The notes beneath the pieces were generated by a model, which worked only from the letters and a program-made list of their open reading frames with translations, did no database searches and was not told the origin of the DNA. 52,021 nt of DNA from positions 1 through 52,021 of the forward strand of contig JAQTSA010000001.1 of NCBI GenBank assembly GCA_028711575.1, given 5' to 3'. A program made the position numbers and the translations under genes. Origin of the DNA: Candidatus Omnitrophota bacterium (GTDB lineage Bacteria; Omnitrophota; Gorgyraeia; Duberdicusellales; 4484-171). This document shows positions 6,708 through 52,021 of the stretch, piece by piece. The number at the start of each line of letters is the position of its first letter. Within the stretch, counting starts at the first letter, position 1.

Positions 6708-6709
6708 AC

Positions 6710-10440: not shown

Positions 10441-10441
10441 T

Positions 10442-10594: not shown

Positions 10595-10623
10595 TTTACA
10601 GACCGGTTTAGATAATTTAAAAT
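10595..10623 (+). promoter_or_regulatory. Possible sigma70 promoter for the 10664 gene
   Basis: TTTACA (10595-10600), a 17-nt spacer, then TAAAAT (10618-10623). Confidence 0.4.
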
Positions 10624-10663
10624 AGGTACAACATTGTTTATTCCAAAAAGTTTAAGGAGGAAA

Positions 10664-11587: not shown

Positions 11588-11605
11588 TTGAGCCTTATAT
11601 TTTTC

Positions 11606-11634
11606 TTGTCGAGCGATGATAAAAATGATACAAT
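11606..11634 (+). promoter_or_regulatory. Sigma70-type promoter for tRNA-Arg(ACG)
   Basis: TTGTCG (11606-11611), a 17-nt spacer, then TACAAT (11629-11634) with an extended -10 TGA. This is the same TGnTACAAT design as at the first tRNA. Confidence 0.5.
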
Positions 11635-11649
11635 TCATGCCTTATTTAT

Positions 11650-11723
11650 GCGCCCGTGGCTCAATTGGATAGAGCATCTGCCTACGGAGCAGAAGGTTAC
11701 AGGTTCAAATCCTGTCGGGCGCG
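11650..11723 (+). tRNA. tRNA-Arg (anticodon ACG)
   Basis: Cloverleaf of 74 nt. Acceptor GCGCCCG/CGGGCGC, D stem GCTC/GAGC, anticodon stem TCTGC/GCAGA with loop CTACGGA, T arm ACAGG-TTCAAAT-CCTGT, discriminator G. Confidence 0.9.
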
Positions 11724-11729
11724 TACTTC
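11695..11729 (+). repeat. Left copy of a 35-nt exact direct repeat (tRNA-Arg(ACG) 3' half plus 6-nt trailer)
   Basis: GGTTACAGGTTCAAATCCTGTCGGGCGCGTACTTC recurs exactly at 12097-12131. Weaker similarity continues downstream (AGTAATTAAGTTA). Confidence 0.9.
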
Positions 11730-14495: not shown

Positions 14496-14948
14496 GTGAA
14501 AAAAATTTTACTTTTTATTTTGTTTTTAAACTTTATTTCTTTTTCTTATTCCGATAGCTATAACCTCTCGGATTTGGGCGGCAACCAGGTCGCTTATGAC
14601 AAGATCACAAAAGAAGAGAACACTATTCTTCTGATGTGGACGACATGGTGCCCTTATTGTCGAAAAGAAATTGTTGATCTTAACAAAAATTACATGAATT
14701 ATAAGAATGTTTCGTTCGTGGTCGTTAATTTGGGAGAGAAAAAATCCAAAATAGACAAGTTTGTTAAATCGGTAAAGTTAAACCCAGAGTTGTTAAAAAA
14801 GTTTGTGACTGACCCGGAATCTAATCTGGCCCGAAAATTTAATATTATAGGTATTCCGGCATACGTTTTTCTGAAAAACGGCGAGGTTATCGCGAAATAT
14901 AATTTTATAAATAAGCAAATAATATCTGAAATTTACGAAAATGAGTAA
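14496..14948 (+). CDS. Thioredoxin-fold thiol:disulfide oxidoreductase (TlpA/ResA-like), secreted
   Basis: Signal-like N-terminus MKKILLFILFLNFISF, active site WCPYC, and a cis-Pro context GIPAYVF. Starts with GTG. Confidence 0.85.
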   Translation: MKKILLFILFLNFISFSYSDSYNLSDLGGNQVAYDKITKEENTILLMWTTWCPYCRKEIVDLNKNYMNYKNVSFVVVNLGEKKSKIDKFVKSVKLNPELLKKFVTDPESNLARKFNIIGIPAYVFLKNGEVIAKYNFINKQIISEIYENE

Positions 14949-16782
14949 ATCGCTAATAATCGATCTTTATGAGCTGACTATGGCTCAGGTTTATTTCAAG
15001 TATAAATCTGAAAGTTTAGCCGGTTTTGACCTTTTTATTCGTTCGGCGAAACGTCCTTTTTATGTTGCTTGCGGGATTGATGAATCGTTATCCTATATTT
15101 CTGATTTACGCTTTAAAAAGGAAGATATTGATTACTTAAAAAGTTTAGCTCTTTTTGAGCCGGAGTTTTTAAAATATTTAAAATCGTTTCGCTTTAAAGG
15201 TGAAGTCTGGGGCGTCGGCGAGCCGGAAATAGTTTTCGCCGGGGAACCGATCTTAAGTGTCAGAGGTTCTTTAATCGAATCACAAATTGTTGAGAGTGCT
15301 CTGCTTAATAAAATTAACCTGGCGACAACGTTGGCAACTAAAGCGGCACGAGTTGTTTTTGCGGCTTCCGGCCGGGGGGTTTATGATTTTTCATTACGCC
15401 GGACTCAAGGTTCGGCCGCGGCTTTGAAAGTTGCTGAATATTCCTATATTGCCGGCGCTCGAGGCACTTCCAATGTTCATGCCGGATTTGTTTATGGAAT
15501 TCCTGTTGCCGGAACAATGGCCCATTCTTTTGTAATGAGTTTTGAGCGTGAGCTGGATAGTTTTATGGCTTTTAGTCAGCAGTTTCCCGCTAAATCGATT
15601 CTTTTGGTTGATACTTACAATCTTAAACAAGGGATTGCGTCGGCAGTAAAAGTCGCAAAATTTATTGAAAAGAAAGGGTTTTCCCTGCTGGGTATAAGGT
15701 TAGATAGCGGCAACTTAGCCAAAGATGCCTTTTTGGCCAGAAGAATGCTTGATTCCGCCGGGCTCGTTGACACACAAATCTTTGCTTCTGGCGATTTAGA
15801 TGAGTACAAGATCACTGATCTGGTATCTCAAAAAGTCCCGATTGACGCTTTTGGTGTTGGAACAAATATGGGATGTTCATCGGACGCGCCTTTTACTAAT
15901 GTGATTTATAAGCTTGTCGAGGTTAAAAACCGGCAAGGAAAGTTTATGCCGACGATGAAATTGAGTCAGGGTAAGATTACTTTGCCGGGTAAAAAACAGG
16001 TTTTTCGTACTATCGATAAAAAGGGATTGATGATTAAAGACGTTATCGCTTTGGAAGGCGAGAAACTGAAGGGCCGCAAACTGCTTAAAAAACTTATGAG
16101 TAACGGCCAAAAAATTTACAAGAAAAATAGTTTAAACGAAAAAAGAAATATCTTTTCGGCGAAGTTCGCCGAGATTCCGGAAACCTTTAGAAAGCCTGAT
16201 TGCTTACAAACTTTCCCGGTTGATATAAGCCGTAAGTTAAACGCTTTAACCGAAACTTTAAAAGATGAAATAAGTATGAGATTTTCTCCGCGAGTTATTT
16301 TTATTGATATCGATACCCAATATGGATTTTTAAAAAAGGGTTCAAACTTGTATGTTCCGAAAACCGAGACTTTGCTGGATAATATAAAAGCGCTTACCCG
16401 GCTGGCTCAAGAAAAGAAAATTTTAGTTATTTCTTCCCAGGATACTCATTGTTCCGGCGATCCGGAGTTTAAGCGGTTTCCGGTTCATTGTTTAAAGGGA
16501 AGCCTGGAACATAAAAAGATAAAAGAGTCGCTGTTAGGGAAACGAGTGGTTGTGCCAACAGATAAAATATTTCATTTTTCCTGGTTGAGTTCTTTGGTTG
16601 AGAAAAATGATCAAATTATTATTGAAAAACATATTTTTAGCATTTTTTCGAATCCCAACATGTCTAGTCTTTTAGAAATAATATTTCCTGACACGATATT
16701 CCTTTATGGGCTGGTTACGGAATATTGCGGAGGGTATTTTAAAACTGGGCTTTGCGGTTACAGTGGTTACGGATGCGGTTAA
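14941..16782 (+). CDS. pncB: Nicotinate phosphoribosyltransferase fused to a nicotinamidase (isochorismatase-fold) domain; the 3' end is frameshifted
   Basis: NAPRT motifs LYELTMAQVYF and GTMAHSF in the N-terminal ~400 aa. The C-terminal domain has VIFIDIDTQYGF, SSQDTH, EKHIFSIFS and GLVTEYC (catalytic Cys). After that Cys the called frame gives a Gly/Tyr/Cys-rich tail (GGYFKTGLCGYSGYGCG) in place of the expected motif. Confidence 0.8.
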   Translation: MSKSLIIDLYELTMAQVYFKYKSESLAGFDLFIRSAKRPFYVACGIDESLSYISDLRFKKEDIDYLKSLALFEPEFLKYLKSFRFKGEVWGVGEPEIVFAGEPILSVRGSLIESQIVESALLNKINLATTLATKAARVVFAASGRGVYDFSLRRTQGSAAALKVAEYSYIAGARGTSNVHAGFVYGIPVAGTMAHSFVMSFERELDSFMAFSQQFPAKSILLVDTYNLKQGIASAVKVAKFIEKKGFSLLGIRLDSGNLAKDAFLARRMLDSAGLVDTQIFASGDLDEYKITDLVSQKVPIDAFGVGTNMGCSSDAPFTNVIYKLVEVKNRQGKFMPTMKLSQGKITLPGKKQVFRTIDKKGLMIKDVIALEGEKLKGRKLLKKLMSNGQKIYKKNSLNEKRNIFSAKFAEIPETFRKPDCLQTFPVDISRKLNALTETLKDEISMRFSPRVIFIDIDTQYGFLKKGSNLYVPKTETLLDNIKALTRLAQEKKILVISSQDTHCSGDPEFKRFPVHCLKGSLEHKKIKESLLGKRVVVPTDKIFHFSWLSSLVEKNDQIIIEKHIFSIFSNPNMSSLLEIIFPDTIFLYGLVTEYCGGYFKTGLCGYSGYGCG

Positions 16783-27699: not shown

Positions 27700-30039
27700 G
27701 TGACAAAACGTAATATTTTAGTCCTGGCGGTAATAGGACTTATTTCTTTTTTGAGTTTTTTCTATTCCTCGGTATTATTCTCTTCCCAAGTATTGGCGAT
27801 TAACGATTTGGTTACTAAATTTGTTTATGCTTTAAATAAACCCCAGCCAGAGTTTTCCAAAGATATAGTTGTTGTAAGAATTGATGATTATTCTTTGCAA
27901 AAAATGGACCAAAAATGGCCTTTTCGGCGCCTGGCTTATGCCAAAGCGGTCGAGATACTCAATCGTCATCAAGCGGCGGTAGTTGCTTTTGATATTGTAT
28001 TCAGCGGTAAAGAAGAACTCAAAGAAGATGATATTTTGTTTTCAGAGACCCTGGCCTTAAGCAAATCAAAAATAGTTATGGGTTCTTACCTGAGGAATGA
28101 TGATATTGTTTTACCTTCTCAAACTCTGGTTGAGAATGCTTCATTGGGTTTTGTTAACGCTTTAAATGATCGTGACGGTAAGGTTCGAAGAATTTGGGTT
28201 CATATCGATCGGGAAGGGTTCTCCGGTTTTTCTTTGCCGATTAAAGTTGTTTCTTCTTTCTTAAATGATGATGTGAAAATTTACGACAGCGTCAGAATTA
28301 GAGATAAAATAATTCCCGCGAAAAACTACTCTTATAATTTCAAAAGTTTTCGGCAGGATCCCTCTAACCAAAGCAGTTATTTGGTTCTGCCGGTAAAGTA
28401 TTCTTTGAAAGAAAAAGATTTCAGGTCAATATCTTTTTATGATCTCCTGCAGGAAAAGATGCCGGAAGATTTTTTCAAAGACAAAATAGTTCTTGTAGGC
28501 GCGACGGCGGAAATCGTTCATGATATAGTAGACACTCCTTTTGGCCGGATGCCAGGCGTGTTCGTGCATGCCAATACCGTACTTTCTATTTTGAAAAATA
28601 AGTATCTTACTACGCCGGCTTTGCCGGTTTTGCTTTTCTTTTTAGTGGTTGTCATTTTGATTACTGGACTGACGGTTTTAAACTCCAATTTTATAGTTGG
28701 CACGGTATATTCAGTTGGCTTTATTCTCCTGGTTTTTTGGGGGGCTGTTGTTTTAGAGGTTGCCGGTTGGAAGGTTCCTTTTGGCCAGTATATTACTGCT
28801 AGCGTTACTTTTTTTGTCTTGGCTAATTTTTATAATTATATAAAGTTTTTTTCGGTTTTGGTCATGATTCGAAAACAAATGACTATTGATCCAATCACTA
28901 ATCTTTTCAGAACAAGATATTTTTATCAGCGGGCGGTGCTGGAGAGGCGAAGTTTACCGAAAAAAAACTGTTATCTGGCCGTTATCGTCTTAAGCGATTT
29001 TGAAGGACGGATTAAAGGTAAAACCGGGGATAAGGTTAAAAAAATTTGGCAGAAAATCAATGAAATCCTTCGATCGGTTTCCCCTTTATGGTGCAGGTAT
29101 TCGCGCGATGTTATTTTGGGGATTCGCAAAGGGAAAATTGATGTGGCCAATCTTTATGATTCGTTAAAAATATTAAGCTTTGAAGAGGATATCAAAGTAA
29201 ATATAAAGGTTGGTCTCCTTGACGTTGGGCCTTACCCTAATATTCGGGACATGGTTCCTTTTCTGATCGAAGATCTGGAAAAGAAACAGGAAAATGTGGT
29301 CGCTTTTCAGAAAAATGAAATCACAGTCCGTTCTAAGAAAACTCATTCCGATAATGATTTTATTTCTTCCTTCTACCAAGAAGCCGAGGAACGGACCCAG
29401 GAGTTATTACAGACAAAAGAAAATTTGATTGAAGAAGAACGCAAAACCAAAGATGCTTACCTTCAAGTTATAACATCTTTGGTCAGTGCTTTGGAATCTA
29501 AGGACCCTTATACAGAGGGTCATTCTGAGCGGGTATCACATTATGCCGTTCTTTTAGCCGAAAGAATAGGTATGCCTCAAGAAGAAATAAATAAGGTAAG
29601 TAAAGCGGCGATTCTTCATGATATCGGTAAAATCGGGATATCGGATACGATATTACAAAAAAAAGATAAACTGACAGACGATGAGTTTAAGATTATTAAA
29701 GAACATGAGATCTTAAGCGTTAAAATTCTCCAGCCGATTGAAGAGTTTAAAGAAATATTACCTTACATCCTTCATCATCATGAGGGGTTTGATGGTAGCG
29801 GATATCCCCACGGTTTATCCGGTGATTTTATACCTTTAGGGGCAAGGGTTATTACGGTCGCTGATATTTTTGATGCTCTGATTACCGGCCGAAGTTACAA
29901 AAAAGCCTATACCATAGAAGAAACTATCAGTATTTTGCTTGAACTAAAAAATAAAAAATTGGACCCATTTTTGGTCGATAAATTTCTGGAGATAATTAAA
30001 GAACGGCATATAACTTCATCTTTTGTAAGAAAACCCTGA
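27700..30039 (+). CDS. CHASE2 sensor - degenerate GGDEF - HD-GYP phosphodiesterase membrane protein
   Basis: N-terminal TM helix, a periplasmic CHASE2-like region and three further TM helices. The GGDEF-like region has RYSRDVILGI in place of GGDEF. HD-GYP motifs are HSERV, LHDIGKI and HHHEGFDGSGYP. Confidence 0.85.
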   Translation: MTKRNILVLAVIGLISFLSFFYSSVLFSSQVLAINDLVTKFVYALNKPQPEFSKDIVVVRIDDYSLQKMDQKWPFRRLAYAKAVEILNRHQAAVVAFDIVFSGKEELKEDDILFSETLALSKSKIVMGSYLRNDDIVLPSQTLVENASLGFVNALNDRDGKVRRIWVHIDREGFSGFSLPIKVVSSFLNDDVKIYDSVRIRDKIIPAKNYSYNFKSFRQDPSNQSSYLVLPVKYSLKEKDFRSISFYDLLQEKMPEDFFKDKIVLVGATAEIVHDIVDTPFGRMPGVFVHANTVLSILKNKYLTTPALPVLLFFLVVVILITGLTVLNSNFIVGTVYSVGFILLVFWGAVVLEVAGWKVPFGQYITASVTFFVLANFYNYIKFFSVLVMIRKQMTIDPITNLFRTRYFYQRAVLERRSLPKKNCYLAVIVLSDFEGRIKGKTGDKVKKIWQKINEILRSVSPLWCRYSRDVILGIRKGKIDVANLYDSLKILSFEEDIKVNIKVGLLDVGPYPNIRDMVPFLIEDLEKKQENVVAFQKNEITVRSKKTHSDNDFISSFYQEAEERTQELLQTKENLIEEERKTKDAYLQVITSLVSALESKDPYTEGHSERVSHYAVLLAERIGMPQEEINKVSKAAILHDIGKIGISDTILQKKDKLTDDEFKIIKEHEILSVKILQPIEEFKEILPYILHHHEGFDGSGYPHGLSGDFIPLGARVITVADIFDALITGRSYKKAYTIEETISILLELKNKKLDPFLVDKFLEIIKERHITSSFVRKP

Positions 30040-35487: not shown

Positions 35488-36534
35488 ATGAGTAAAACTG
35501 TTAAAATAAGAGATTTAAAAGTCGGGGGCAAAAACCCGGTCCGGATTAAGGGTATGCTTAAAACGCAGATAACTAACAAAAAAGGTTTGTTGCGGGAAGC
35601 TTTAGCCCTGCAAACTGAAGGCGCGGACGCGATTCGAGTAGCGGTTAAACGGGCGGAAGACGCTTCTATCGTTGGTGAATTAAAAAAGGTTGTTAAAGTG
35701 CCTTTAGTAGCTGACGTCCATTTTCATTATAAAACCGCTCTAGCAGCTATTGAGAGCGGTTTTGATTCGATACGCTGGAACCCTTTAAATATTACTGATA
35801 AAGACCAGGTCCGAACTGTAATTAAAGCGGCAAAAAAAGCTAAGGTTTCAATTCGTGTTGGGGTTAATTCCGGAGGATTTAAACAGCGGTTTGCTACTGA
35901 GCGCGATCTTGCTTTGGCGATGCTTGAAAAGATATCTGAATCGATTAATCTTCTTGAGGCTGAGAACTTTTTTGACATTATGGTTTCACTTAAAGCCTCG
36001 ACAGTTGACGCTACTGTTTTAGCTAATAGATTATTCAGGGAAAAATTTGATTATCCTTTACATCTTGGAGTAACAGCTACAGGGCCATTTGTTCCGGCAA
36101 TAGTTAAATCAGCAATTGGTATTGGAATGCTGCTAAAGGAGAATATCGGTGATGTTATTCGGGTTTCGTTGACTGGCCCTTCTTTTTGGGAGATCCGGGT
36201 CGCTAAATCAATTTTACAAGCGATCGGTAAGCTGGATGATTCGCCGGAAATAATATCTTGCCCGACTTGTTCACGCTGCCAGGTTGACTTAATTTCCCTT
36301 GTTGAGAACTTTGAAAAAGAGGTCTTGAATTGTAAAAAAAAGGGATATGTTTTTCCAAAAAAAATTGCCCTTATGGGTTGTGAAGTCAATGGCCCCGGCG
36401 AAGCTTGTCAGGCTGATATCGGCGTTGCTTTTGGAAAAGACAAAGGTTCCTTATTTAAAAAGGATAAGATTATCGGTTCGGTTAGCGCAAAAATCTCGAT
36501 GAAAAACCTTGTCAAAAAGTTGGGAGGTAAATAA
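35488..36534 (+). CDS. ispG: 4-hydroxy-3-methylbut-2-en-1-yl diphosphate synthase
   Basis: GcpE-type TIM region (IRVAV, VADVHF) and 4Fe-4S ligands ISCPTCSRC...GCEVNGPGEA. ATG 35488 is preferred over the track start 35443. Confidence 0.9.
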   Translation: MSKTVKIRDLKVGGKNPVRIKGMLKTQITNKKGLLREALALQTEGADAIRVAVKRAEDASIVGELKKVVKVPLVADVHFHYKTALAAIESGFDSIRWNPLNITDKDQVRTVIKAAKKAKVSIRVGVNSGGFKQRFATERDLALAMLEKISESINLLEAENFFDIMVSLKASTVDATVLANRLFREKFDYPLHLGVTATGPFVPAIVKSAIGIGMLLKENIGDVIRVSLTGPSFWEIRVAKSILQAIGKLDDSPEIISCPTCSRCQVDLISLVENFEKEVLNCKKKGYVFPKKIALMGCEVNGPGEACQADIGVAFGKDKGSLFKKDKIIGSVSAKISMKNLVKKLGGK

Positions 36535-37781
36535 TGGAGACAAAAGATATCAAAAAAGATCTTCGTCGCGAGTTGAGTTTTACCTTGGGGAAAAACCAAA
36601 AACTGACGAAAGAGATGATTGAAGATAGAATCTCAAAAATATTTGATTTTTGGGCAAAGGAAAAAGCCCGCTCGTTGCCGGAAGACGTTAAGCTGCAGGT
36701 CGTTTCTGAATTGTGCGATGAGTTTTTAGGTTGGGGACCGCTGCAGCCTTTGATGGAAGACCCGAATGTGACTGAGATTATGGTTAACGGGCCGGAACAG
36801 GTTTTCATTGAAAAACATGGTTTAAAAACTACAACTGACATTAAGTTTGATGATGAAGCTCACTTGCGTCACCTGGTTGAAAAGGCGATACATCCTACCG
36901 GACGTAGAGTGGATGAGTCATACCCTTACGTTGATTTTTCCTTAAACGATGGTTCGCGTATCAATGTGATCATTCCGCCTTTATCGGTTGGCGGCTCAAC
37001 CGTTACAATACGAAAATTTTTGAAGTCAATCAGCAGGATTGATGATTTGGTATCTCTTGGTACGATTGATAACCGAATGGCCGAGTTTCTTGTCTCTTGT
37101 CTTAAGGGAAAAGTTAACATTCTTTTTTCCGGTGCCACCGGAGCCGGGAAAACAACTACTTTAGAAGTTCTGACCAATTATCTTAATCCTCAGGAAAGAA
37201 TTATTGTTATTGAAGATACCTTGGAGTTGACATTAAATCAGGAACATACCGTACGGCTTCTCACCCGTCCGCCGAATATTGAGGGCCGCGGTGAAGTAAC
37301 TATTCGCGATATTTTTATCAATACTTTGAGGATGCGTCCGACCCGGATAGTTCTTGGTGAAATCAGGGGCGCTGAGGCAATGGATTATCTCCAGGCTCTA
37401 AATAGCGGTCACCGGGGATGTTTAGCGGTTATACACGCCTCAAGCCCTTATGATTCTTTGACTCGCCTTGAGACTATGGCGTTGTACGCTGGGTTGTATA
37501 TGCCGGTTTGGGCGGTACGTAAACAAATAGCTTCCGGGGTTGATTTAATCGTTCAGCATAGTCAGTTGCTTGACGGTACTAGAAAAATAACCCATATCAC
37601 TGAGGTTGATAAAATGGAGGGCGATGATATAATCTTGCGTGATCTTTTCCGTTATGAGATCGAAGGCGTTGATTCAAACGGCCAAGTCCAGGGTAAATTT
37701 GTAGCTAAAAATGTGCCGAATTTCTTTTCTACATTTAAGAGTAGAGGCATAAAAATGAGTGAGGATCTTTTTAAGGAATGA
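36534..37781 (+). CDS. CpaF/TadA-family type II/IV secretion (Tad pilus) ATPase
   Basis: VNGPEQVFIEKHG, Walker A GATGAGKTT, RMRPTRIVLGEIRGAEA and SGHRGCLAVIHASS. The start overlaps the ispG stop (TAATG). Confidence 0.9.
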   Translation: METKDIKKDLRRELSFTLGKNQKLTKEMIEDRISKIFDFWAKEKARSLPEDVKLQVVSELCDEFLGWGPLQPLMEDPNVTEIMVNGPEQVFIEKHGLKTTTDIKFDDEAHLRHLVEKAIHPTGRRVDESYPYVDFSLNDGSRINVIIPPLSVGGSTVTIRKFLKSISRIDDLVSLGTIDNRMAEFLVSCLKGKVNILFSGATGAGKTTTLEVLTNYLNPQERIIVIEDTLELTLNQEHTVRLLTRPPNIEGRGEVTIRDIFINTLRMRPTRIVLGEIRGAEAMDYLQALNSGHRGCLAVIHASSPYDSLTRLETMALYAGLYMPVWAVRKQIASGVDLIVQHSQLLDGTRKITHITEVDKMEGDDIILRDLFRYEIEGVDSNGQVQGKFVAKNVPNFFSTFKSRGIKMSEDLFKE

Positions 37782-45562: not shown

Positions 45563-45777
45563 GGTTTTCCTTCTTTTTCTAAAATTTTAGCTGTGCCAGA
45601 AATATTTTTTTAAAAGTTTTTTCGCAAATCGATAAATTTTAGGATTCTGAAATCGTTTACAAAAATAATAATTGGGCTTACGATCCGGTACTATATATAT
45701 GTTATATATAATATGGTAGTGGTTTCTTTAAAGGTCAGTGGTGTTCTTTAAGGAAATTGTTTATAAATAGTGGTGGC

Positions 45778-48700
45778 ATGATAATCTTTTTTTATAAAAA
45801 ACGTGGTGAGATTTCTTTTCGGGTTCTAGTTGTTACTTTAATCCTATCTTTTTGCCTTTCGCTTGCTTCCGGCTATTTCAATAACCAATCTTCTTCAGGT
45901 TTTGCTGAATACGTACCTGAACCGAGTAAGCTTATACCTTTAAGCCAACCTTTTAGCCCTGCTATGCTTAGGGGAGTAACCGTAAACCCCAAAGATCCTT
46001 TTCAATTTGATTTTCTTCTTGATAGTGGACAAGAAACGTTAACCAATGAAAGGTTGATTAGAGAGTCTAAGCGACTTATTAAATATTTTTATGGTGCTTT
46101 AACTGTTCCGTCTGAGGACCTTTGGGTAAACCTTTCTCCTTATGAATCGGAAAGGATAGTTCCCACCGAGCTTGGTTCAACTGAACTAGGTAAAGGTCTT
46201 CTAGAGCAAGATTATATTTTAAAACAGCTTCTTGCTTCAGTTACTCATCCGGAGAGTCCTTTGGGAATGAAGTTTTGGCAGAAAGTTTATCAACGCGCTT
46301 ATTCCTTGTATGGGACGTCAGATATTCCGATTAATACGTTTGATAAGATATGGATTGTTCCTGATAGGGCAGTAATCTATGAAGATGGAAACAAAGCCTA
46401 TATCAAAGAAAGTAATTTGAAGGTTATGCTAGAAGAGGATTATCTGGCTTTGGAAAAAAATCGCAATAATCCTGATAAAGCTTTGAATTCTATCGGCGTC
46501 GATAAGATCAACCAGATAAGTAAAGTATCTTCAGATATCATGAGAGATATCGTTCTACCTGAAATAGAGCGAGACATAAATACAGGTGAAAATTTTGCGG
46601 TGTTACGTCAGATTTACAATTCTTTAATCCTTGCGGTATGGTTCAAACAAAAGTTAAAGACACATATCTTAAATCAGGTTTACTCGGATAGAAACAAGAT
46701 AAAGGGCGTCGACATTAATGACCGAAATGTTAAAGATAAAATCTACGCGTATTATTTGGAAGCATTTAAGAAAGGTGCCTACGATTTAATCAGAAATGAC
46801 TATGACCCGGTTACAGATCGAAAGATTAAACGTCGATACTTTTCCGGTGGATTTGACGGATCAAAAGTTCTAGATGTTATTTCTGGTAGTCCGTTTCCGA
46901 AAGGAGGCATTAGTTCTGAAGGTAAAGTCATTGCCTTAAGCGTTAGGACTTATCCGGCATTAACGGGAATGGGTGTTGGCGGTGGATCGGAATCTGGCGG
47001 TAGCGATAGTTCTTTTGGTGTCGGTGGTGGTGCGGTAAAAAAAATCGACCCAATAGAAGATCAAATAAGACGACAACAACTAAAAAAACGGTTATCTTTT
47101 TCGGCGCTGCTTGAAAATGTTCTGAGCCATGTTGTATATCTTTTAAGGCGATCGCCGGCTTTTTTTTTAGCGGAGCATCTTACAGATAAGAATTCACCCA
47201 AAACGGCTAACGATTATACTGCAGCAGAACTGAATCCATACGATTCATCTACCTACCATCAAACGGTTCATCAGGCGATTTCTTCCGGTTTACCATCAGA
47301 TTTAGATAAGAACTTTGAGAATTATCGAGATCATGATGGTCAAGTCGTTTTGCCTGTAAAAGACCTTTTTAAGAATACAGGTCTTATTGCTCACATTGGT
47401 TTAGGACAGGTTTACGATGAACCTGTCATTTATATAGATTCCCAATTTAATGGGCAAGATCGAGAGGATATAAAAGCTCACGAACGATATGAAATTGAGA
47501 GATGGCAGTGGCTTCGCAGTGGGTTGGGTCTTAATTATCAGCAAATGCGTAATTGGATACGTGATAATTCAAATTATACCGGATCAGGGACGGCACAGCG
47601 TCTTGCGGCAAAATGGCACGTTCAAGCTCCGAGTGTTCGGCATATTTATCTGCGTATTCAGGGAGATAAAGTTCAATCAGCTTCAATGCAGGCGACGGTT
47701 GCTAGTGTCGAAGATGTTTATGATGATTCTCCTGACGTAGTCTTGGCGGCGGGTTTTTCTTCAGCAATTGATATGGATCCTGAAACATTAGAAATCCTAG
47801 ACCTTACTATTGAGGAAGTCTTAAAAGAAAAGCAAGCTCAGTCTGGTAGAGAAGTCTTTAATTCTGGACCTTTAGTTTCGATAATTTTCGAACAGGACAT
47901 CCAAAGGCATAGCTCGGAATTTAGCGATCGATTATCTCAATATATACCATACCTAAATGATCGCTATAGCAATCAATATTATTTTACGAACTTAGCCAAT
48001 TATCTGGACTATATCTCTGAACGGTTATTCAAAGATAGTTACGACAGTGAATTGATACCCACCAGTTATCATTTAACATGGGGAGATTTCAAGAGGCATA
48101 TTCGTCGTGAAATAATCTTTTTTGGCGATAATTCCCGTAAAGCAGTTGAACGAATCCTGTTTTTATTAGGTGTCGATCCTTATGGGGTAAACAGCAATGA
48201 GATAGAAAGCAGAAAAGCATACCTGCAAAGAGTAATTGAACGCTGGCATATATTTGGACCGATAAAATCCTTGGCTTTAGGCGAATTTGTTTTTGTTGAA
48301 TCAGGTAAAGACAAAGGGGTTTATCTTAAAGTGAAAGTTCCGCTTAAGGGCCAACGGTTAGCAAGAACTGATGAAACGGCGGATCAAGAGCGAGAACTTG
48401 TTTTTAAGATTTCGGTACTGAATAACGCTATTGTTAAACCAGGTAATAAGGCTGATTTTGAGAATAGTCAACACTGGCACAATATCTTAAATAGTGTCCG
48501 TTATGCTATGTTTAATCCCTTACCCAATGATGTGGTTATGCGCGCTCCGCATGGAAGGATGTATCATCATACCTTTTCTGTTAACAGTAGCCTTCAAGAT
48601 CATCGGGTCGTTTTTCGTCCGATACTTTATGACAATGAGGACACTGATTCGGGCGTTGCCGGGGAAATAGTAATTACCGGTATTGCTACTCACTTCAATA

Positions 48701-51700
48701 ATCATGAAGGGTTGTATAAGGAGCCGTTATTAGCGGCAGTGTCAAGCGCTGAGAGTATTGAAAATGGCACTCTTGTTGGTGCTGATGGTAAAGTTATTGC
48801 GAGATTGCGAGGGCTAATGGAAGATTCACCTTTGTCGTCACTAGAAACCCTGCAGGCTGTAGCTGAAGCAATTGACAGGGGCAATATTTCTCTTATACGA
48901 GACAAGTCTGTTCAGGCTAATTTGGGAATAATTCAAAATGATGATCAGCAAAAAGAAAATGAACTGATAGAGTTAGATGTTTTTTCTTCGCTGGTGCAGC
49001 GGGCTATGAGTCAGGGTGAGTGGATTGGTAACTATGATTCTCGGATATTTTCTCGTTTGGAAACGTTGGGGGGGCGTGGAACGAGGACTTCGTTTGAGGT
49101 GTACTCTATGGATAAAGGCGGTTTCCCGCAGGGTGTAACCACGGCCTGGGGTTTTATTAGAGGAAGTTTTGTTTTTGTTGTGTCATCAGATGTTGCTGGC
49201 AATAAAGAGGATCTTGATCAAGCCTTGAAAAACGCGGTTAATCAGATACGGAATATGGTGCAGATGGTCTCTTCTGGCAATATAGGTGCTGTCGAAAGTG
49301 CGTTACGAGAAAGTCTAGATTCTCTGTACGGGAAAGAAGTTCCGTTTAATGAAGAAATTAAAAGTTTGTTAATCAGATCCAGGATTATTTCTTCTGATGT
49401 TGCAGAATTGCTTGAAGTACATATAGTAGCAGATGAAGAACTGAACGCTCTTGGATTGAATGATGCGGCATATTCGGTTGATAGTAAAATAATTGTCCGT
49501 CGTTCAGTGTATGAGGATGGCGTTGCGATAAACAACGGCAGATTAACTGATTATTCCAAAGTTCTTATTCATGAGTCAGTAGCCAGACATTTAGCTTTTT
49601 ATCAGAATGCGGCTTCTGGAGAGGGGAGTGTTCATCACTGGGCTGCTCGCAGTATAGAACAGCAGATGGAACTATCAGTTTTGTTAGAGTATAGAGATTC
49701 ACTGAGTAGTAAAGAGGAGAAAGAAGAAGTCTCAAAAGAGATACGACAGTTGTACGTAAGACATAACCAACAGCTAGAAAAGATGGAGCTTGATATTATT
49801 GGTCTTGACACAGAAAATAAGCGTCAGCATAGTGAAGATTATGCCATGTCCGGTAGTCTTGGTACCTTTAACCGTGGTGAATTATCGCTTCGCAAAAAAA
49901 ACGTTCAGGAATTACTTCAAGGGTATACTCGGTCAGCTTCTCGCACGGAAGCGGAAAAACACATAAGAGAACTTATATTTAGATTAGGCGGAATAGATAA
50001 CTTAAAAGCTACTGAAGCTTTGAGAACAATCGTAACTCGACCTCGGGTGAACAGACAGGATAATGAAATCCTTTTAGCGGTTGAGGCTCTTTCTTTTGCT
50101 GCGGGTAAAGGTAACAGCGTCGCTCAGTCACAGTTACGAACTATTGTTCAGATGCACTTAGCCAATCTTATTATTAGCGGGATTGTTTCTGGATTTTTTT
50201 CGACGGATTCCGGTCATTTTGCCGATGGCTTCCTTTCATCAACTGTTATGCCTAAATTACTTTCGATGCTTGCGGATCAAGGATCCATGGGGGCAGACGT
50301 TTTTACTCCGGTAACACAATTAATCAGTTTGGTTCTACAGTCTCCGGAGCGTTTTAATCAGGATAACTCTTTTGATAAGGAAAAAATAGAGTCTTTGTTT
50401 GTCCGTCGTCTTATTTCTGCTGACGCTATTCTTTCCACACCGGATTTATCAATTGAGGAGTACCGTGCTTCGGCTAATACTGTAAATGCGATAGGGGACT
50501 ATTTTCCTTACCTAATCATTCAGGATTATAACGCCGCCAGAGTAGGCTACGCCTTGGGTCCTTACGCCAGTCAGAATGGACTTGCTTCCTGGAGATTTTT
50601 TGATAATGCTCATTTTCAGGAGGTTACATCAGGGCTAACGGCTATTGAACGGCATTCCATAGCTTCTGCAGCTTATCATTTTTTGCGTCAGCACGGTAAA
50701 AGTACTGTTGTTGACGGAAACCTTTCGGTTGCCGTTGACGTTATTATGATGCAACGCACGAGTAATTCGTTACTTTCAATACGTCCGTTTTCCTCAACCA
50801 GAAAAACAATCAATATCCTTCACAATGAAGATAGTTTTGACGTGTCTATGGTTGAAGAAATTGAACGTCAGGCTAGTTCTCAAACCGGAGAACCCCTAAT
50901 AGAGAGTTTTAAGGGGGCTGAACAAAAATATAACGCTCTCAACTCTGTATCCCAGAGTACCGGGGAACTAACCGTGTTCTTTGTCGGGCATGGCGGTCCA
51001 AATCACTCATGGCTTTCCGGAGGGGAACCAGAAACAGCTGTTTCTGATAGGATGAAACATCCCTACGCGATAAGTTTTGAGGAAATGGGAAACTCTCTGA
51101 TAGAGCGTGGTGATATAGGTAAAGTTGTTATTTTACTTGAATCGTGTTATTCGTACAACTTCGCGGTTAATTTATACAATTATTTGAAACAACATGGTGC
51201 AAAAGAGTTCCCTGCGATTGTTACGGCATCATCGTACAACCAGTTGAGTTGGACCATATTGTTTGTTAAATCGATATCGGAGTTTGTTCGCAGAAACAAC
51301 GATTTTAAGCTCGGTGACGCCTTTGAGATAGAGCAATATATGTATCAAGATCAGGATCTTAGCGTTTTCCTTCCAACGTCTAAATCGATAGAAAACCAGG
51401 TAGCAAACCTCGTTGATGCTGAAGACGGACAAGATGCTTTTATTTTCGACGATCAAACCGTAGAGTTGTACTTTCCTGGGTTGATCCTTGCTGCTACTGA
51501 AACAGGTGTTCGGGAAGAAACTGAGATTAGATATCCCCCCTTAGCTGTTGTTCAGTCAGGGTTCATTGGTAGTGACGGCCGAGTCGAAATATCGGATTTA
51601 GAGAAAATAGGTGTTGCTTCAGATAGAGTGATTGATGCATATAATCGTAAAGAATTTATGTTACCGGTAACAGTTGCAAACGGCCACGTTGTTTTGAGGG

Positions 51701-52021
51701 ATGCAGTTTTACAAATAGGAGACATTACTGTTACAATTAAGGTAAATAATACGGTTGAAGGGTTTGCGGGTGTATCGGCAGATCATAGTGTCGTTTATGT
51801 TAACATTACTGATATTGATGATTTATTATTTTCATCTCAATTGTCTGATGAGGAAAAAGAAACAGCGGTAAAACGAATACTTTTGCATGATGTGACTGAA
51901 AGTTATGCTTTACAAAGCCGATATCGTCGTCCGGAAGCGCATCAGGCAGCGATGATGGCTGAAAGTATGATGCCCGGACAGTCTCAACGGATACGTGATG
52001 CCTTAGGCGATATACTTAAAA
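45778..52021 (+). CDS. Giant membrane-anchored protein of more than 2,081 aa (3' end beyond the window); not in the supplied ORF track
   Basis: I hand-translated the frame phased with 45778, 20 codons per sequence line. No TAA/TAG/TGA occurs between the in-frame TAA at 45709-45711 and base 52021. The first ATG is 45778 (alternative TTG at 45757). The N-terminus is MIIFFYKKRGEISFRVLVVTLILSFCLSLASGYF (basic stretch plus one TM helix). Only short out-of-frame or antisense ORFs are listed in the track for this region. Confidence 0.85.
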   Translation, partial: MIIFFYKKRGEISFRVLVVTLILSFCLSLASGYFNNQSSSGFAEYVPEPSKLIPLSQPFSPAMLRGVTVNPKDPFQFDFLLDSGQETLTNERLIRESKRLIKYFYGALTVPSEDLWVNLSPYESERIVPTELGSTELGKGLLEQDYILKQLLASVTHPESPLGMKFWQKVYQRAYSLYGTSDIPINTFDKIWIVPDRAVIYEDGNKAYIKESNLKVMLEEDYLALEKNRNNPDKALNSIGVDKINQISKVSSDIMRDIVLPEIERDINTGENFAVLRQIYNSLILAVWFKQKLKTHILNQVYSDRNKIKGVDINDRNVKDKIYAYYLEAFKKGAYDLIRNDYDPVTDRKIKRRYFSGGFDGSKVLDVISGSPFPKGGISSEGKVIALSVRTYPALTGMGVGGGSESGGSDSSFGVGGGAVKKIDPIEDQIRRQQLKKRLSFSALLENVLSHVVYLLRRSPAFFLAEHLTDKNSPKTANDYTAAELNPYDSSTYHQTVHQAISSGLPSDLDKNFENYRDHDGQVVLPVKDLFKNTGLIAHIGLGQVYDEPVIYIDSQFNGQDREDIKAHERYEIERWQWLRSGLGLNYQQMRNWIRDNSNYTGSGTAQRLAAKWHVQAPSVRHIYLRIQGDKVQSASMQATVASVEDVYDDSPDVVLAAGFSSAIDMDPETLEILDLTIEEVLKEKQAQSGREVFNSGPLVSIIFEQDIQRHSSEFSDRLSQYIPYLNDRYSNQYYFTNLANYLDYISERLFKDSYDSELIPTSYHLTWGDFKRHIRREIIFFGDNSRKAVERILFLLGVDPYGVNSNEIESRKAYLQRVIERWHIFGPIKSLALGEFVFVESGKDKGVYLKVKVPLKGQRLARTDETADQERELVFKISVLNNAIVKPGNKADFENSQHWHNILNSVRYAMFNPLPNDVVMRAPHGRMYHHTFSVNSSLQDHRVVFRPILYDNEDTDSGVAGEIVITGIATHFNNHEGLYKEPLLAAVSSAESIENGTLVGADGKVIARLRGLMEDSPLSSLETLQAVAEAIDRGNISLIRDKSVQANLGIIQNDDQQKENELIELDVFSSLVQRAMSQGEWIGNYDSRIFSRLETLGGRGTRTSFEVYSMDKGGFPQGVTTAWGFIRGSFVFVVSSDVAGNKEDLDQALKNAVNQIRNMVQMVSSGNIGAVESALRESLDSLYGKEVPFNEEIKSLLIRSRIISSDVAELLEVHIVADEELNALGLNDAAYSVDSKIIVRRSVYEDGVAINNGRLTDYSKVLIHESVARHLAFYQNAASGEGSVHHWAARSIEQQMELSVLLEYRDSLSSKEEKEEVSKEIRQLYVRHNQQLEKMELDIIGLDTENKRQHSEDYAMSGSLGTFNRGELSLRKKNVQELLQGYTRSASRTEAEKHIRELIFRLGGIDNLKATEALRTIVTRPRVNRQDNEILLAVEALSFAAGKGNSVAQSQLRTIVQMHLANLIISGIVSGFFSTDSGHFADGFLSSTVMPKLLSMLADQGSMGADVFTPVTQLISLVLQSPERFNQDNSFDKEKIESLFVRRLISADAILSTPDLSIEEYRASANTVNAIGDYFPYLIIQDYNAARVGYALGPYASQNGLASWRFFDNAHFQEVTSGLTAIERHSIASAAYHFLRQHGKSTVVDGNLSVAVDVIMMQRTSNSLLSIRPFSSTRKTINILHNEDSFDVSMVEEIERQASSQTGEPLIESFKGAEQKYNALNSVSQSTGELTVFFVGHGGPNHSWLSGGEPETAVSDRMKHPYAISFEEMGNSLIERGDIGKVVILLESCYSYNFAVNLYNYLKQHGAKEFPAIVTASSYNQLSWTILFVKSISEFVRRNNDFKLGDAFEIEQYMYQDQDLSVFLPTSKSIENQVANLVDAEDGQDAFIFDDQTVELYFPGLILAATETGVREETEIRYPPLAVVQSGFIGSDGRVEISDLEKIGVASDRVIDAYNRKEFMLPVTVANGHVVLRDAVLQIGDITVTIKVNNTVEGFAGVSADHSVVYVNITDIDDLLFSSQLSDEEKETAVKRILLHDVTESYALQSRYRRPEAHQAAMMAESMMPGQSQRIRDALGDILK
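50950..51180 (+). other. Candidate clan CD (caspase/legumain/CHAT-like) cysteine peptidase catalytic core inside the giant ORF
   Basis: ELTVFFVGHGGP (His codon 50989-50991, residue 1738) and GKVVILLESCYSYNF (Cys codon 51145-51147, residue 1790). Each follows a hydrophobic strand, 52 residues apart. Compare the legumain-type hhhhxDHG ... hhhhEACxSG pattern. Confidence 0.5.

What the first reader, a model, noticed from the sequence alone, without database searches (positions are those of the whole stretch)
45778..52021. Uninterrupted ORF of more than 2,081 codons, absent from the ORF track and running off the window end
The last 6.2 kb look empty in the supplied track, which lists only 5 short antisense or out-of-frame ORFs there. 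Read in the frame phased with 45778, there is not a single stop codon from the in-frame TAA at 45709-45711 to base 52021. I checked every line, 20 codons each. The track presumably dropped this ORF because it has no stop inside the window.

The product starts with a basic stretch plus one hydrophobic helix (MIIFFYKKRGEISFRVLVVTLILSFCLSLASGYF). That predicts a signal anchor with the bulk of the protein outside the cytoplasm. A ~360-aa N-terminal domain follows (..DLWVNLSPYESERIVPTELGSTELGKGLLEQDYILKQ..). Next is a Gly/Ser linker, GMGVGGGSESGGSDSSFGVGGG (about 46966-47034). More than 1,600 further residues follow, and I can assign only one motif in them (see the next finding).

This single gene is at least 12% of the window and its size is a lower bound. 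Giant surface proteins in small-genome uncultivated bacteria are candidates for attachment or host and prey interaction. That functional idea is inference only.
Basis: partly seen in the sequence, partly recalled or inferred. Interest (0 to 1): 0.85.

Follow-up and report, generated by a model that had tools for sequence, protein, structure and literature searches.

The report
Capped modular exported protein of Omnitrophota
The long open frame is a real gene cut off by the end of the contig, and it belongs to a very large, apparently undescribed Omnitrophota protein family in which a fixed export leader, a fixed head domain and a fixed tail domain frame a middle made of swappable enzyme modules, here including a caspase-like protease.

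Summary
Observation confirmed. The frame of 45778 is open from TAA 45709-45711 to base 52021. That is 2,081 codons from the ATG, with chance about 1e-65. Codon usage matches the neighbouring housekeeping genes.

The gene is the 5' part of a member of a large family seen almost only in Omnitrophota (8,286 clusters at 50% identity). Complete members share one layout:
- a Sec-type leader;
- a conserved ~350-aa "N-cap" with no Pfam, NCBIfam, PDB or Foldseek match;
- a flexible linker;
- a variable cargo of 0.4 to more than 4 kaa;
- a conserved ~65-aa "C-cap" (GGIDLNP...PVIINITPVTNLPLLLG) at the extreme C-terminus.

The window ends before the C-cap, so the protein is truncated. The total is probably 2.2-5 kaa.

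The visible cargo holds an uncharacterised "module B" (aa 474-685) and a caspase/CHAT-like clan CD module (aa ~1538-1880). Its His1738 and Cys1790 are invariant in relatives.

A syntenic Omnitrophota MAG carries a positional orthologue after ruvB. Only the N-cap and the protease module align, so cargo turns over fast.

The most likely role is an exported carrier whose caps serve common export or anchoring machinery. No adhesin domain was found. The mechanism is inferred, not shown.

The parts
45563..45777 (+). AT-rich 215-bp intergenic region between ruvB and the ORF. It holds one sigma-70-like site at 45656-45684.
   Evidence: This is a consensus match only. No terminator-like site was found after ruvB.
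45778..45879 (+). Start codon and Sec/SRP-type leader (aa 1-34). The n-region is MIIFFYKKRGEIS (net +3) and the h-region is FRVLVVTLILSFCL. A possible signal peptidase I site is SLA|SG. The leader is either cleaved or kept as an N-in anchor.
   Evidence: the only strong hydrophobic segment; family-wide leader statistics, no Tat motif.
45895..46953 (+). N-cap (aa 40-392), the family-defining conserved domain. Motifs are WVNLSPYE, QDYILKQ, NTFDKIWIVP, LKVMLEEDY, NFAVLRQIYNSLILAVWFK and RRYFSGG.
   Evidence: Relatives are 46-56% identical and 46 columns are invariant. It defines 8,286 clusters at 50% identity and was a single N-terminal copy in 150 of 150 best hits. The AF2 model has pLDDT 73.5 and pTM 0.78. 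There is no Pfam, NCBIfam, PDB-sequence or Foldseek match.
46966..47031 (+). Gly/Ser-rich flexible linker (aa 397-418) between the N-cap and the cargo.
   Evidence: The AF2 model has pLDDT below 50 at its C-terminal end.
47197..47832 (+). Cargo "module B" (aa 474-685), an uncharacterised conserved module. Motifs are AHIGLGQVY..PVIYID, HERYEIERWQW, MRNWI, WHVQAPS and DVVLAAG. In relatives it usually sits directly after the N-cap. In the two M48-bearing relatives checked it lies upstream of the M48 peptidase domain.
   Evidence: 17 homologues aligned. No Pfam hit.
47833..50388 (+). Orphan cargo (aa 686-1537). No detectable homologue or domain was found. The last ~150 aa look HEAT-like by eye only.
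   Evidence: Searches were all negative. Frame 0 coding signal is intact.
50389..51417 (+). Clan CD (caspase/CHAT/legumain-like) cysteine-peptidase-like module (aa 1538-1880). The putative catalytic His1738 is at 50989-50991 in VFFVGHGG. The putative catalytic Cys1790 is at 51145-51147 in VILLESCYS.
   Evidence: Pfam Peptidase_C13 scores E = 0.0023, below the cutoff. His and Cys are invariant in 6 divergent members. In the AF2 model the core has pLDDT 72-94 and each residue follows a beta strand. The best Foldseek hits are SAVED-CHAT 8tl0 (E = 5e-4) and caspases-7, -11, -3, -9 and -8 at probability 0.99-1.00; further down are caspases-1 and -4 (0.96-0.98), GPI transamidase PIGK (0.97) and a legumain-type asparaginyl endopeptidase (0.96).
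51418..52021 (+). Further orphan cargo (aa 1881-2081), running off the contig end. The C-cap expected at the true C-terminus lies outside the window.
   Evidence: 109 of 119 homologues and 62 complete genomic ORFs end with the C-cap. Attempts to extend the sequence failed.

Best explanation
Shown:
- The ORF is the 5' 6.2 kb of a genuine chromosomal gene of a Candidatus Omnitrophota bacterium.
- It encodes one paralogue of a very large family, seen almost only in Omnitrophota, with a fixed frame and a variable filling.
- The frame is a Sec/SRP-type N-terminal leader, a conserved ~350-aa N-cap, a flexible linker, a cargo region of shuffled modules, a second linker and a conserved ~65-aa C-cap at the extreme C-terminus.
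- The window stops inside the cargo, so the C-cap is missing.
- The cargo seen here contains uncharacterised module B and a caspase/CHAT-like clan CD module with an intact His-Cys dyad.

Inferred:
- The leader takes the polypeptide across, or anchors it in, the inner membrane, with the bulk outside the cytoplasm.
- The two caps are conserved because they engage machinery or structures common to all paralogues. Candidates are export across or attachment to the envelope, or assembly.
- The cargo gives each paralogue its own activity and turns over quickly.
- The clan CD module most likely acts as a protease, either on external (host or prey) proteins or in processing of the carrier itself.
For: - The gene is real.
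- Organism and locus: ispG-T2SSE-proS-rimP-nusA-infB-trpS-scpA-ruvB followed by a family gene is syntenic with Omnitrophota MAG ELA036, at 59-75% aa identity for the full-length gene matches from T2SSE to ruvB except rimP (45%); the ispG match is a partial ORF.
- N-cap family: at least 1,892 word-indexed hits shared only residues ~1-400 with the query. An exhaustive HMM search found 8,286 clusters, always one copy starting at residue ~2-70 in the best 150.
- Phylum: all 80 best genome loci are Omnitrophota-labelled, unclassified, or labelled "uncultured Planctomycetales".
- C-cap: present in 109 of 119 homologues, a median of 7 aa from the end. All 62 complete ORFs in genome loci that could be scored carry both caps. 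Apparent exceptions are mostly frameshift-split or truncated.
- The caps co-diverge: Mantel r = 0.59, p <= 0.001.
- Leaders.
- 102 of 120 members have no internal hydrophobic segment.
- Cargo shuffling: Pfam content differs from hit to hit. Module B and the CD module occur at different positions in different members.
- The positional orthologue aligns only in the N-cap (49% identity) and the CD module (24% identity), which sits ~1,900 aa further along.
- Clan CD assignment.
Against: - No experiment or dedicated predictor (SignalP, DeepTMHMM) was available, so export and topology rest on hand-made statistics.
- The N-cap and C-cap have no known relatives, so "export or anchoring handle" is argued from architecture only.
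- No conserved neighbouring gene that could encode partner machinery was found in 80 loci.
- Much of the family's cargo is cytoplasm-type, ATP- or cofactor-dependent enzymes: response regulators, kinases, glycolytic enzymes, radical SAM. Some keep intact catalytic motifs. This fits poorly with a periplasmic or surface location.
- The CD model is only moderate in quality (pLDDT 62.6, 5-sequence alignment), and the Pfam hit is below the curated threshold.
- The C-cap of this particular gene is unseen.
Confidence: 0.55

Rival explanations
1. Self-delivering effector carrier, working like MARTX or other large toxins. After Sec export the conserved N-cap and C-cap cooperate to insert into a host or prey membrane and pass the enzyme cargo into the foreign cytoplasm. 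There the cargo is active and may be cut free, for example by the clan CD module or at the Gly-Gly junctions.
For: - Conserved ends flank a mosaic middle.
- The cargo is overwhelmingly cytoplasm-type enzymes and signalling domains, some with intact catalytic motifs, behind an export leader.
- Cargo turns over rapidly at an orthologous locus.
- Published work proposes predatory or parasitic lifestyles for Omnitrophota (PMC10066038; bioRxiv 10.1101/2023.11.21.568195).
- A weak cluster of ClyA-family pore-forming toxins sits among the top Foldseek hits for the N-cap.
Against: - The Foldseek hits are not significant (E >= 0.18, probability <= 0.07, TM ~0.1).
- There are no RTX or other known translocation repeats.
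- Of the homologues searched for query modules, only five, plus the orthologue, carry the CD module, so it cannot be a general release device.
- There is no evidence of membrane-insertion elements. Internal hydrophobic segments are rare.
Confidence: 0.15
2. Membrane-tethered cytoplasmic multi-enzyme scaffold. The N-terminal helix only tethers the protein, and the N-cap and cargo stay on the cytoplasmic side, where ATP, SAM and sugar phosphates are available.
For: - The cargo repertoire is cytoplasm-type, and some catalytic motifs are intact, including a radical-SAM CxxxCxxC.
- West-Roberts et al. themselves doubt predicted extracellular placement of glycolytic domains in Omnitrophota giants.
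- Type II leaders, which the query's leader resembles, have 10-15 polar residues between the h-region and the conserved sYA motif. They may therefore not be cleaved.
Against: - The positive-inside rule puts the N-terminus in and the rest out. The net charge before the h-region is positive in 95% of 213 leaders.
- Type I leaders look like textbook cleavable signal peptides ending xYA|Q.
- A conserved extreme-C-terminal module combined with an N-terminal signal is the classic layout of sorted exported proteins.
Confidence: 0.15
3. Head-to-tail assembling subunits. Paralogues would then polymerise into long heterogeneous surface fibres or a coat, a post-translational counterpart of the phylum's ultra-giant genes.
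For: - Every complete member has exactly one N-cap and one C-cap, at opposite ends.
- The caps co-diverge (Mantel r = 0.59).
- Paralogues often lie in same-strand tandem arrays (18 of 80 loci).
- The cargo repertoire overlaps that of the >=10-kaa giants.
Against: - There is no direct evidence of any N-cap/C-cap interaction.
- Co-divergence is equally explained by vertical descent of the gene's ends while the middle is exchanged.
Confidence: 0.08
4. Artefact: a chimeric assembly, a fusion of several genes through sequencing errors, or a decaying pseudogene.
For: The contig is a metagenomic assembly. About 1,050 of the 2,081 residues have no detectable homologue.
Against: - There are 2,103 stop-free codons where chance expects about 145 stops.
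- The codon-usage signal is uniform in all ten segments, and GC content is uniform.
- The syntenic orthologue also links an N-cap to a downstream clan CD module in one ORF of at least 3,734 aa.
- Long single ORFs with both caps are the rule in 62 independent loci.
Confidence: 0.02

Closest known systems
Omnitrophota giant multi-enzyme proteins ("Archaeovorins"; West-Roberts et al. 2023, bioRxiv 10.1101/2023.11.21.568195; Nielsen & Lui 2026, bioRxiv 10.64898/2026.06.07.730766; Seymour et al. 2023, PMC10066038)
   Same: The phylum is the same. N-terminal signal peptides are common in both. The domain repertoire of the family's cargo is strikingly similar: PGM, PGI, TIM, FBA, PPDK, response regulator, HATPase, GNAT, methyltransferase, radical SAM, HEAT, Nudix. 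Most of the sequence is unannotatable in both.
   Different: Those proteins are 10-147 kaa with tens to hundreds of TM helices and often carry SecA-DEAD or C39 domains. This family is 0.8-5 kaa and has a single N-terminal hydrophobic segment. It is defined by an N-cap and a C-cap that the passages of those papers I searched and read do not mention. Whether the giants carry the caps could not be tested.
Sorted secreted proteins with an N-terminal signal peptide and a C-terminal sorting domain (T9SS CTD cargo; PEP-CTERM/exosortase, LPXTG/sortase and GlyGly-CTERM/rhombosortase substrates)
   Same: The layout matches: a leader, a variable passenger and a conserved module of ~65 aa at the extreme C-terminus. 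There are many paralogues per genome with unrelated passengers.
   Different: The C-cap matches no Pfam or NCBIfam sorting-domain model. It has no TM helix plus basic tail. These families also have no conserved N-proximal domain. No sortase-like or PorU-like partner was identified.
TpsA exoproteins of two-partner secretion (including CdiA)
   Same: Both are very large exoproteins with a Sec leader, followed at once by a conserved ~250-350-aa N-proximal domain shared by all family members, and then a long variable remainder.
   Different: The N-cap is a mixed helix and beta-hairpin fold, not a beta-helix. There is no Haemagg_act/TPS hit. No TpsB-like neighbour is present. The C-terminus is conserved rather than variable.
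MARTX toxins
   Same: Conserved N- and C-terminal regions flank a mosaic array of exchangeable enzymatic domains. A clan CD cysteine protease module lies inside the polypeptide.
   Different: There are no glycine-rich RTX-type repeats. The leader is Sec-type rather than a type I secretion signal. The protease module is nearest to CHAT and caspases rather than C80 CPD, and it is present in only a few family members.
Clan CD cysteine peptidases (CHAT, caspase C14, legumain/GPI-transamidase C13)
   Same: For aa ~1670-1880 the predicted alpha/beta fold matches. The His-Gly...Cys dyad has each residue after a hydrophobic beta strand, spaced 52 residues apart.
   Different: Sequence similarity is below family thresholds (C13 scores 17.9 bits against a cutoff of 22.8; no CHAT or caspase Pfam hit). 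The module sits inside a >2,000-aa exported modular protein, preceded by a conserved helical region shared only with other family members.

Membership tests
Omnitrophota N-cap/C-cap modular family (defined here) | Sec/SRP-type leader directly upstream of the N-cap | tested here: met
   In aa 1-34 the n-region has net charge +3, the h-region has mean KD 2.7 and an SLA|SG site follows. The pattern is the same in 213 relatives.
Omnitrophota N-cap/C-cap modular family (defined here) | Single N-terminal copy of the ~350-aa N-cap domain | tested here: met
   aa 40-392 are 46-56% identical to 31 diverse members, and all 46 invariant columns are present.
Omnitrophota N-cap/C-cap modular family (defined here) | C-cap (GGIDLNP...hydrophobic PVIINITPV/FEGFTF block) at the extreme C-terminus | not testable with these tools
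   The window ends inside the cargo. No overlapping contig or close relative was found. 109 of 119 homologues and 62 complete ORFs have the C-cap.
Clan CD cysteine peptidases | Catalytic His then Cys, each following a hydrophobic beta strand, with His followed by Gly | tested here: met
   VFFVGH1738GG and VILLESC1790. Both are invariant in 6 divergent members. Strands E193-199 and E246-251 precede them in the model.
Clan CD cysteine peptidases | Caspase-hemoglobinase alpha/beta fold | tested here: met
   The nine best Foldseek PDB hits are all clan CD: SAVED-CHAT (E = 5e-4) and caspases-7, -11, -3, -9 and -8 at probability 0.99-1.00. PIGK and a legumain-type endopeptidase follow at 0.96-0.97. 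The model is of moderate quality (pLDDT 62.6; core 72-94).
Clan CD cysteine peptidases | Membership of a curated family (C13, C14, CHAT...) at the curated threshold | tested here: not met
   Peptidase_C13 scores E = 0.0023 and 17.9 bits, below the 22.8 cutoff. No other clan CD model hit. A profile search against PDB sequences found nothing.
Clan CD cysteine peptidases | Peptidase activity | not testable with these tools
   Needs biochemistry.
Archaeovorin-type giant proteins | Length of tens of thousands of aa with many TM helices | tested here: not met
   There is one strong hydrophobic segment in 2,081 aa. The roughly 220 N-cap proteins whose lengths were returned by the searches reach at most 4,969 aa. 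The true length of this gene is unknown.
Archaeovorin-type giant proteins | SecA-DEAD, HEAT or GT domains detectable by HMM | tested here: not met
   There are no such Pfam hits in the visible part.
MARTX toxins | Glycine-rich RTX-type repeat regions, a type I secretion signal and a C80 CPD | tested here: not met
   There are no repeat or RTX hits. The leader is Sec-type. The protease module is nearest to CHAT and caspases.
Two-partner secretion TpsA | TPS (Haemagg_act) beta-helix domain and an adjacent TpsB | tested here: not met
   There is no Pfam hit. The N-cap model is helix-rich with two beta hairpins. No conserved neighbour was found.
T9SS or sortase-type sorting signals | C-terminal domain matching a known sorting-domain model | tested here: not met
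   The two C-cap variants gave no Pfam or NCBIfam hit even at E <= 1-10.

The most novel reading that the evidence does not exclude
The N-cap and C-cap together form a previously unknown delivery or assembly device, seen almost only in Omnitrophota and expanded to thousands of variants. It would take cytoplasm-type enzymes (kinases, response regulators, glycolytic enzymes, radical SAM enzymes, proteases) out of these nanobacteria, either into host or prey cells or into head-to-tail surface polymers. This would be a new protein-export or effector platform, and a modular, small-gene counterpart of the phylum's 10-147-kaa giant proteins.
Probability: 0.2. Interest if true: 0.85.

Novelty: new variant of a known kind. 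Interest (0 to 1): 0.62.

Why it matters
Omnitrophota are widespread ultra-small bacteria, and published work proposes that many depend on or prey on other cells. How they act on their hosts is unknown. Attention has gone to their record-size genes, which are almost impossible to analyse.

This window points to a much more tractable relative. It is a family of thousands of 1-5-kaa proteins with two sharply defined, highly conserved, unannotated end modules and the same enzyme repertoire as the giants. The caps give three things:
- a simple sequence handle (two HMMs) to catalogue the whole repertoire in any genome;
- a concrete object for structural and localisation experiments;
- a way to test the open question of whether the cytoplasm-type enzymes of Omnitrophota giant proteins really work outside the cell.

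For annotation, many members are currently named after one cargo domain, for example "response regulator", "AarF/UbiB family protein" or "glucose-6-phosphate isomerase". That is misleading for metabolic reconstruction.

Tried and rejected
1. Giant proteins as concatenations of [TM + N-cap + cargo] units. Rejected: the N-cap is single and N-terminal in 150 of 150 best hits.
2. Module B repeated three times in the query (aa ~534-580, 1226-1275, 1994-2046 looked alike by eye, with a DUF4157-like \"A..vvyv...HE\" pattern). Rejected: hhalign probability is below 1%, no better than controls, and self-BLAST finds nothing.
3. The N-cap as a ClyA/MakA/Nhe-type pore-former. Only non-significant Foldseek hits were found (E >= 0.18, TM ~0.1), so this is not used as evidence. 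The BFVD library was also negative.
4. A dedicated neighbouring secretion or processing gene. None was found. Recurrent neighbours are generic response regulators, histidine kinases and ABC-F proteins at variable distances.
5. A Tat leader, which would explain cofactor-bearing cargo. 0 of 213 leaders match.
6. Extending the gene. An exact 40-mer and degenerate peptide scans of metagenome contigs found nothing. The window's proteins are singletons at 90% identity.
7. A homologue search with the CD module alone returned nothing, and a search with the whole cargo returned only 5 weak hits. The orphan regions stay orphan.
8. Known sorting domains, M48, RTX and TPS as identities for the caps or module B: no hits.
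9. A viral origin. Only 3 of 2.9 million IMG/VR contigs encode an N-cap.

Full report
**Observation.** Translating 45709-52021 gives a TAA followed by 2,103 sense codons up to the last base. The ATG at 45778 opens 2,081 of them. The other five frames of the same 6.3 kb carry 116-233 stops each. With P(stop) = 0.069 per codon, the chance of such an open frame is about 1e-65. The ORF lister skips it only because it runs off the window. Relative synonymous codon usage correlates with 17 housekeeping genes of the window at r = 0.86, against 0.11 and 0.47 for the off-frames. Frame 0 has the best codon log-odds in all ten 600-nt segments. GC content is uniform and there are no significant tandem repeats.

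**Setting.** All genes of the window lie on the + strand. Upstream of the ORF are uppS, cdsA, dxr, rseP, ispG, a T2SSE-type ATPase, proS, rimP, nusA, infB, trpS, scpA and ruvB. A 215-bp AT-rich spacer with one promoter-like site follows. The same order, from ispG through ruvB and then a large ORF, occurs in locus L001. L001 comes from Candidatus Omnitrophota MAG ELA036 (JBAWWL010000009.1). Protein identity there is 59-75% for the full-length gene matches from the T2SSE ATPase to ruvB, apart from rimP at 45%; the ispG match is a partial ORF. The window is therefore chromosomal DNA of an Omnitrophota bacterium, and L001 holds the positional orthologue of the ORF.

**The family and its N-cap.**
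- A search with the full protein returned at least 1,892 proteins of 1.2-3.5 kaa. Every hit that carries a source name is named Omnitrophota or Omnitrophica.
- These hits share only the first 15-22% of the query, at about 50% identity. After that they carry quite different Pfam content.
- I aligned 32 diverse copies of this N-cap (query aa 40-405; alignment A1). 46 columns are invariant. Motifs include WVNLSPYE, QDYxLKQ, NTFNKVWIVP, LKVMLEEDY, NFAxLRQIYNSLILAxWFK and RKYFSGG.
- An exhaustive profile search of 1.84 billion representatives found 8,286 clusters at 50% identity (6,695 at E <= 1e-30). In all 150 best hits the domain is present once and starts at residue ~2-70. Protein lengths there are 420-4,969 aa, and many are fragments.
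- A scan of one genome per species found at least 586 loci. The best 80 are labelled Omnitrophota, unclassified, or \"uncultured Planctomycetales\", with several loci per genome.
- The N-cap has no Pfam, NCBIfam or PDB-sequence match, not even a consistent weak one across 32 members.
- Its AlphaFold model (pLDDT 73.5, pTM 0.78) shows helices plus two beta hairpins. It has no significant Foldseek match in the PDB or BFVD.

**The C-cap and the overall layout.**
- Reading the C-termini of the hits showed a second conserved module. Its consensus is KNVGGIDLNPALLDLEIKGDGNGVPLPLDQQPIENMNIEGFTPVIINITPITNLPLLLG, followed by an acidic tail that often ends (E/Q)LSxx.
- An HMM of this module finds it in 109 of 119 homologues, always at the extreme C-terminus, a median of 7 residues from the end. 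Two of the ten without it are named partial by their source, and the others may also be truncated.
- In the 80 genome loci, 62 ORFs complete at both ends carry both an N-cap and a C-cap. Their lengths are 795-3,602 aa, with a median of 1,672.
- Ten further ORFs run beyond the 10-kb flank at more than 3,700 aa.
- Most apparent exceptions are split by a frameshift or cut by a contig end.
- 18 loci hold two or three same-strand copies in tandem.
- The C-cap also has no Pfam or NCBIfam match.
- Distances between N-caps and between C-caps are correlated across 107 proteins (Mantel r = 0.59, p <= 0.001).
- A minority \"type II\" C-cap (F.GFTF.I) goes with a distinct leader type that the query's leader resembles.
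- Internal hydrophobic segments are rare: 102 of 120 proteins have none. These are therefore not multi-pass membrane proteins.
- No non-family gene is consistently nearby. The recurrent neighbours are generic response regulators, histidine kinases and ABC-F proteins at variable distances.

**Leaders.** Of 213 complete N-termini, 95% have a net positive n-region. The median h-region hydropathy is 2.2. 210 have an AXA-like site. None has a Tat consensus. Type I leaders end xYA|Q directly after the h-region. In the query the h-region FRVLVVTLILSFCL is followed by SLA|SG, then ~10 polar residues, then the conserved GFA-EYVPEP entry into the N-cap. I cannot tell from sequence whether it is cleaved or kept as an anchor. 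Either way the positive-inside rule places the rest of the protein outside the cytoplasm.

**What the window's copy carries.** The G/S linker (aa 397-418) follows the N-cap. After the linker:
- *Module B (aa 474-685).* It is shared with 17 proteins and usually lies directly after their N-caps. Its motifs are AHIGLGQxY..PVIYID, HExYEIxxWE, MRxWI, WHxxAPS and DVNLAAG. In the two M48-bearing relatives checked by Pfam it lies upstream of the M48 domain and is not that domain.
- *Orphan cargo (aa 686-1537 and 1881-2081).* No homologue or domain was found by any search.
- *Clan CD module (aa 1538-1880).* It is shared with five other members and the orthologue.
  - His1738 (VFFVGHGG) and Cys1790 (VILLESCYS) are invariant.
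  - Pfam gives a sub-threshold Peptidase_C13 hit.
  - The AlphaFold model (core pLDDT 72-94) places each residue just after a beta strand.
  - The nine best Foldseek PDB hits are SAVED-CHAT (E = 5e-4) and caspases-7, -11, -3, -9 and -8, at probability 0.99-1.00. Caspases-1 and -4, GPI transamidase and a legumain-type endopeptidase follow further down.
  - This is a caspase-like fold with an intact dyad. It fails curated family thresholds, so I call it clan-CD-like rather than a member of C13, C14 or CHAT.

**Truncation and likely size.** The query lacks the C-cap, so the gene continues beyond the contig. A Kaplan-Meier estimate over family ORFs longer than 2,151 aa gives a median total of about 3.2 kaa, with 39% above 3.7 kaa. 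The longest among the roughly 220 N-cap proteins whose lengths the searches returned is 4,969 aa. Extension failed.

**Cargo turnover.** The positional orthologue in L001 (at least 3,734 aa, also cut off) aligns with the query only in the N-cap (49% identity) and the clan CD module (24% identity). The CD module sits about 1,900 residues further along, and nothing in between aligns. The flanking housekeeping proteins are 59-75% identical. So the cargo changes by gain, loss and divergence of modules much faster than the genome around it. The same comparison argues against a chimeric assembly.

**Relation to published work.** Giant (10-147 kaa) multi-enzyme, multi-TM proteins of Omnitrophota have been described. 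Their domain repertoire includes PGM, PGI, TIM, FBA, PPDK, response regulator, HATPase, GNAT, methyltransferase, radical SAM, HEAT and Nudix. This is essentially the repertoire I see in the cargo of the capped family. The passages of those papers that I searched and read mention no shared N- or C-terminal module. Motif and keyword searches of the library found nothing either. Within the limits of the libraries at hand, the capped layout appears undescribed.

**How it probably works.** The architecture is shown: a leader, the N-cap, a linker, shuffled cargo, a linker and the C-cap. The following is inferred. The leader drives Sec/SRP export or anchoring. The caps are conserved because they meet something common to all paralogues, such as an export route across the outer membrane, an attachment site or an assembly partner. 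The cargo provides paralogue-specific activity. In this copy the clan CD module is the likely catalytic part.

The layout resembles sorted surface proteins (signal peptide plus C-terminal sorting domain). It also resembles TpsA exoproteins (leader plus conserved N-proximal secretion domain) and MARTX toxins (conserved ends around a mosaic of effector domains). It fails the defining tests of each.

The main difficulty is that much of the cargo is made of cytoplasm-type, cofactor-dependent enzymes. Some keep intact catalytic motifs, for example PGM TASHNP/DGDADR, the PGI signatures, a radical-SAM CxxxCxxC and M48 HExxH. That keeps three rivals alive: delivery into host or prey cytoplasm, a cytoplasm-facing tethered scaffold, and head-to-tail assembly. 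Both cap-cargo junctions carry an invariant Gly-Gly (RKYFSGG and GGIDLNP). That is the kind of site cut by C39 peptidases, which are reported to be common in Omnitrophota giants. This is only a lead.

**Verdict.** It is wrong in emphasis: this is not a unique giant adhesin but one truncated paralogue of a huge capped modular family, with a caspase-like module. I file it as a new variant of a known kind. Interest is moderate to high because the two caps are sharply defined, abundant and unannotated, and they make the biology of Omnitrophota long proteins experimentally approachable.

Noticed in passing
window 1-52021: Every called gene is on the + strand, and GC skew is positive in all 26 2-kb bins. 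The whole window looks like one leading-strand stretch.
   Followed up: no
window 7-8089: Three paralogous radical SAM genes (3004-4449, 5286-6707, 6710-8089), two of them with a B12-binding domain, sit next to a GT2 glycosyltransferase (1632-2342) and a YfhO-like membrane protein (7-1632). This may be a modification gene cluster.
   Followed up: no
window 14941-16782: A nicotinate phosphoribosyltransferase is fused to an isochorismatase/nicotinamidase-like domain in one 613-aa ORF.
   Followed up: no
window 27700-30039: A 779-aa protein combines an extracytoplasmic CHASE2 sensor domain with an HD_5 (HD-GYP-type) domain.
   Followed up: no
window 36534-37781; L001 243-1505: A lone T2SSE/PilB-type secretion ATPase is wedged between ispG and proS, about 8 kb upstream of the ORF. 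It is conserved in the same place (74% identity) in the syntenic Omnitrophota MAG. West-Roberts et al. report T2SS-like loci upstream of giant genes. Here only the ATPase is present.
   Followed up: partly
family-wide: query aa 352-358 (window 46831-46851) and the C-caps of relatives: Both caps meet the cargo at an invariant Gly-Gly: the N-cap ends R[KR]YFSGG and the C-cap begins GGIDLNP. Double-glycine sites are the substrates of C39 peptidases, which are reported to be frequent in Omnitrophota giant proteins.
   Followed up: no
relatives P0016, P0022, P0029, P0084, P0085, P0093, P0096: Cargo enzyme domains are a mix of apparently intact and degenerate copies. Intact: PGM TASHNP + DGDADR in P0093, PGI signatures in P0084 and P0096, radical-SAM CxxxCxxC in P0085. 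Degenerate: PGM of P0016, P0022 and P0029 lacks the phosphoserine loop.
   Followed up: partly
L081, L082, L083 (IMG/VR contigs): Three contigs classed as viral in IMG/VR encode an N-cap protein, against at least 586 loci in bacterial genomes. These are probably misclassified Omnitrophota fragments.
   Followed up: no
loci L005, L009, L013, L017 and others: Many MAGs that carry the family are labelled "uncultured Planctomycetales bacterium" (TPA assemblies), while all other carriers are Omnitrophota. This is either a labelling problem or a sign that the family reaches beyond the phylum.
   Followed up: no
window 10109-11724: tRNA-Arg(TCG) at 10109-10183, tRNA-Glu(CTC) at 10398-10471 and tRNA-Arg(ACG) at 11649-11724. 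Rfam's tRNA model at its gathering threshold missed the tRNA-Glu.
   Followed up: no
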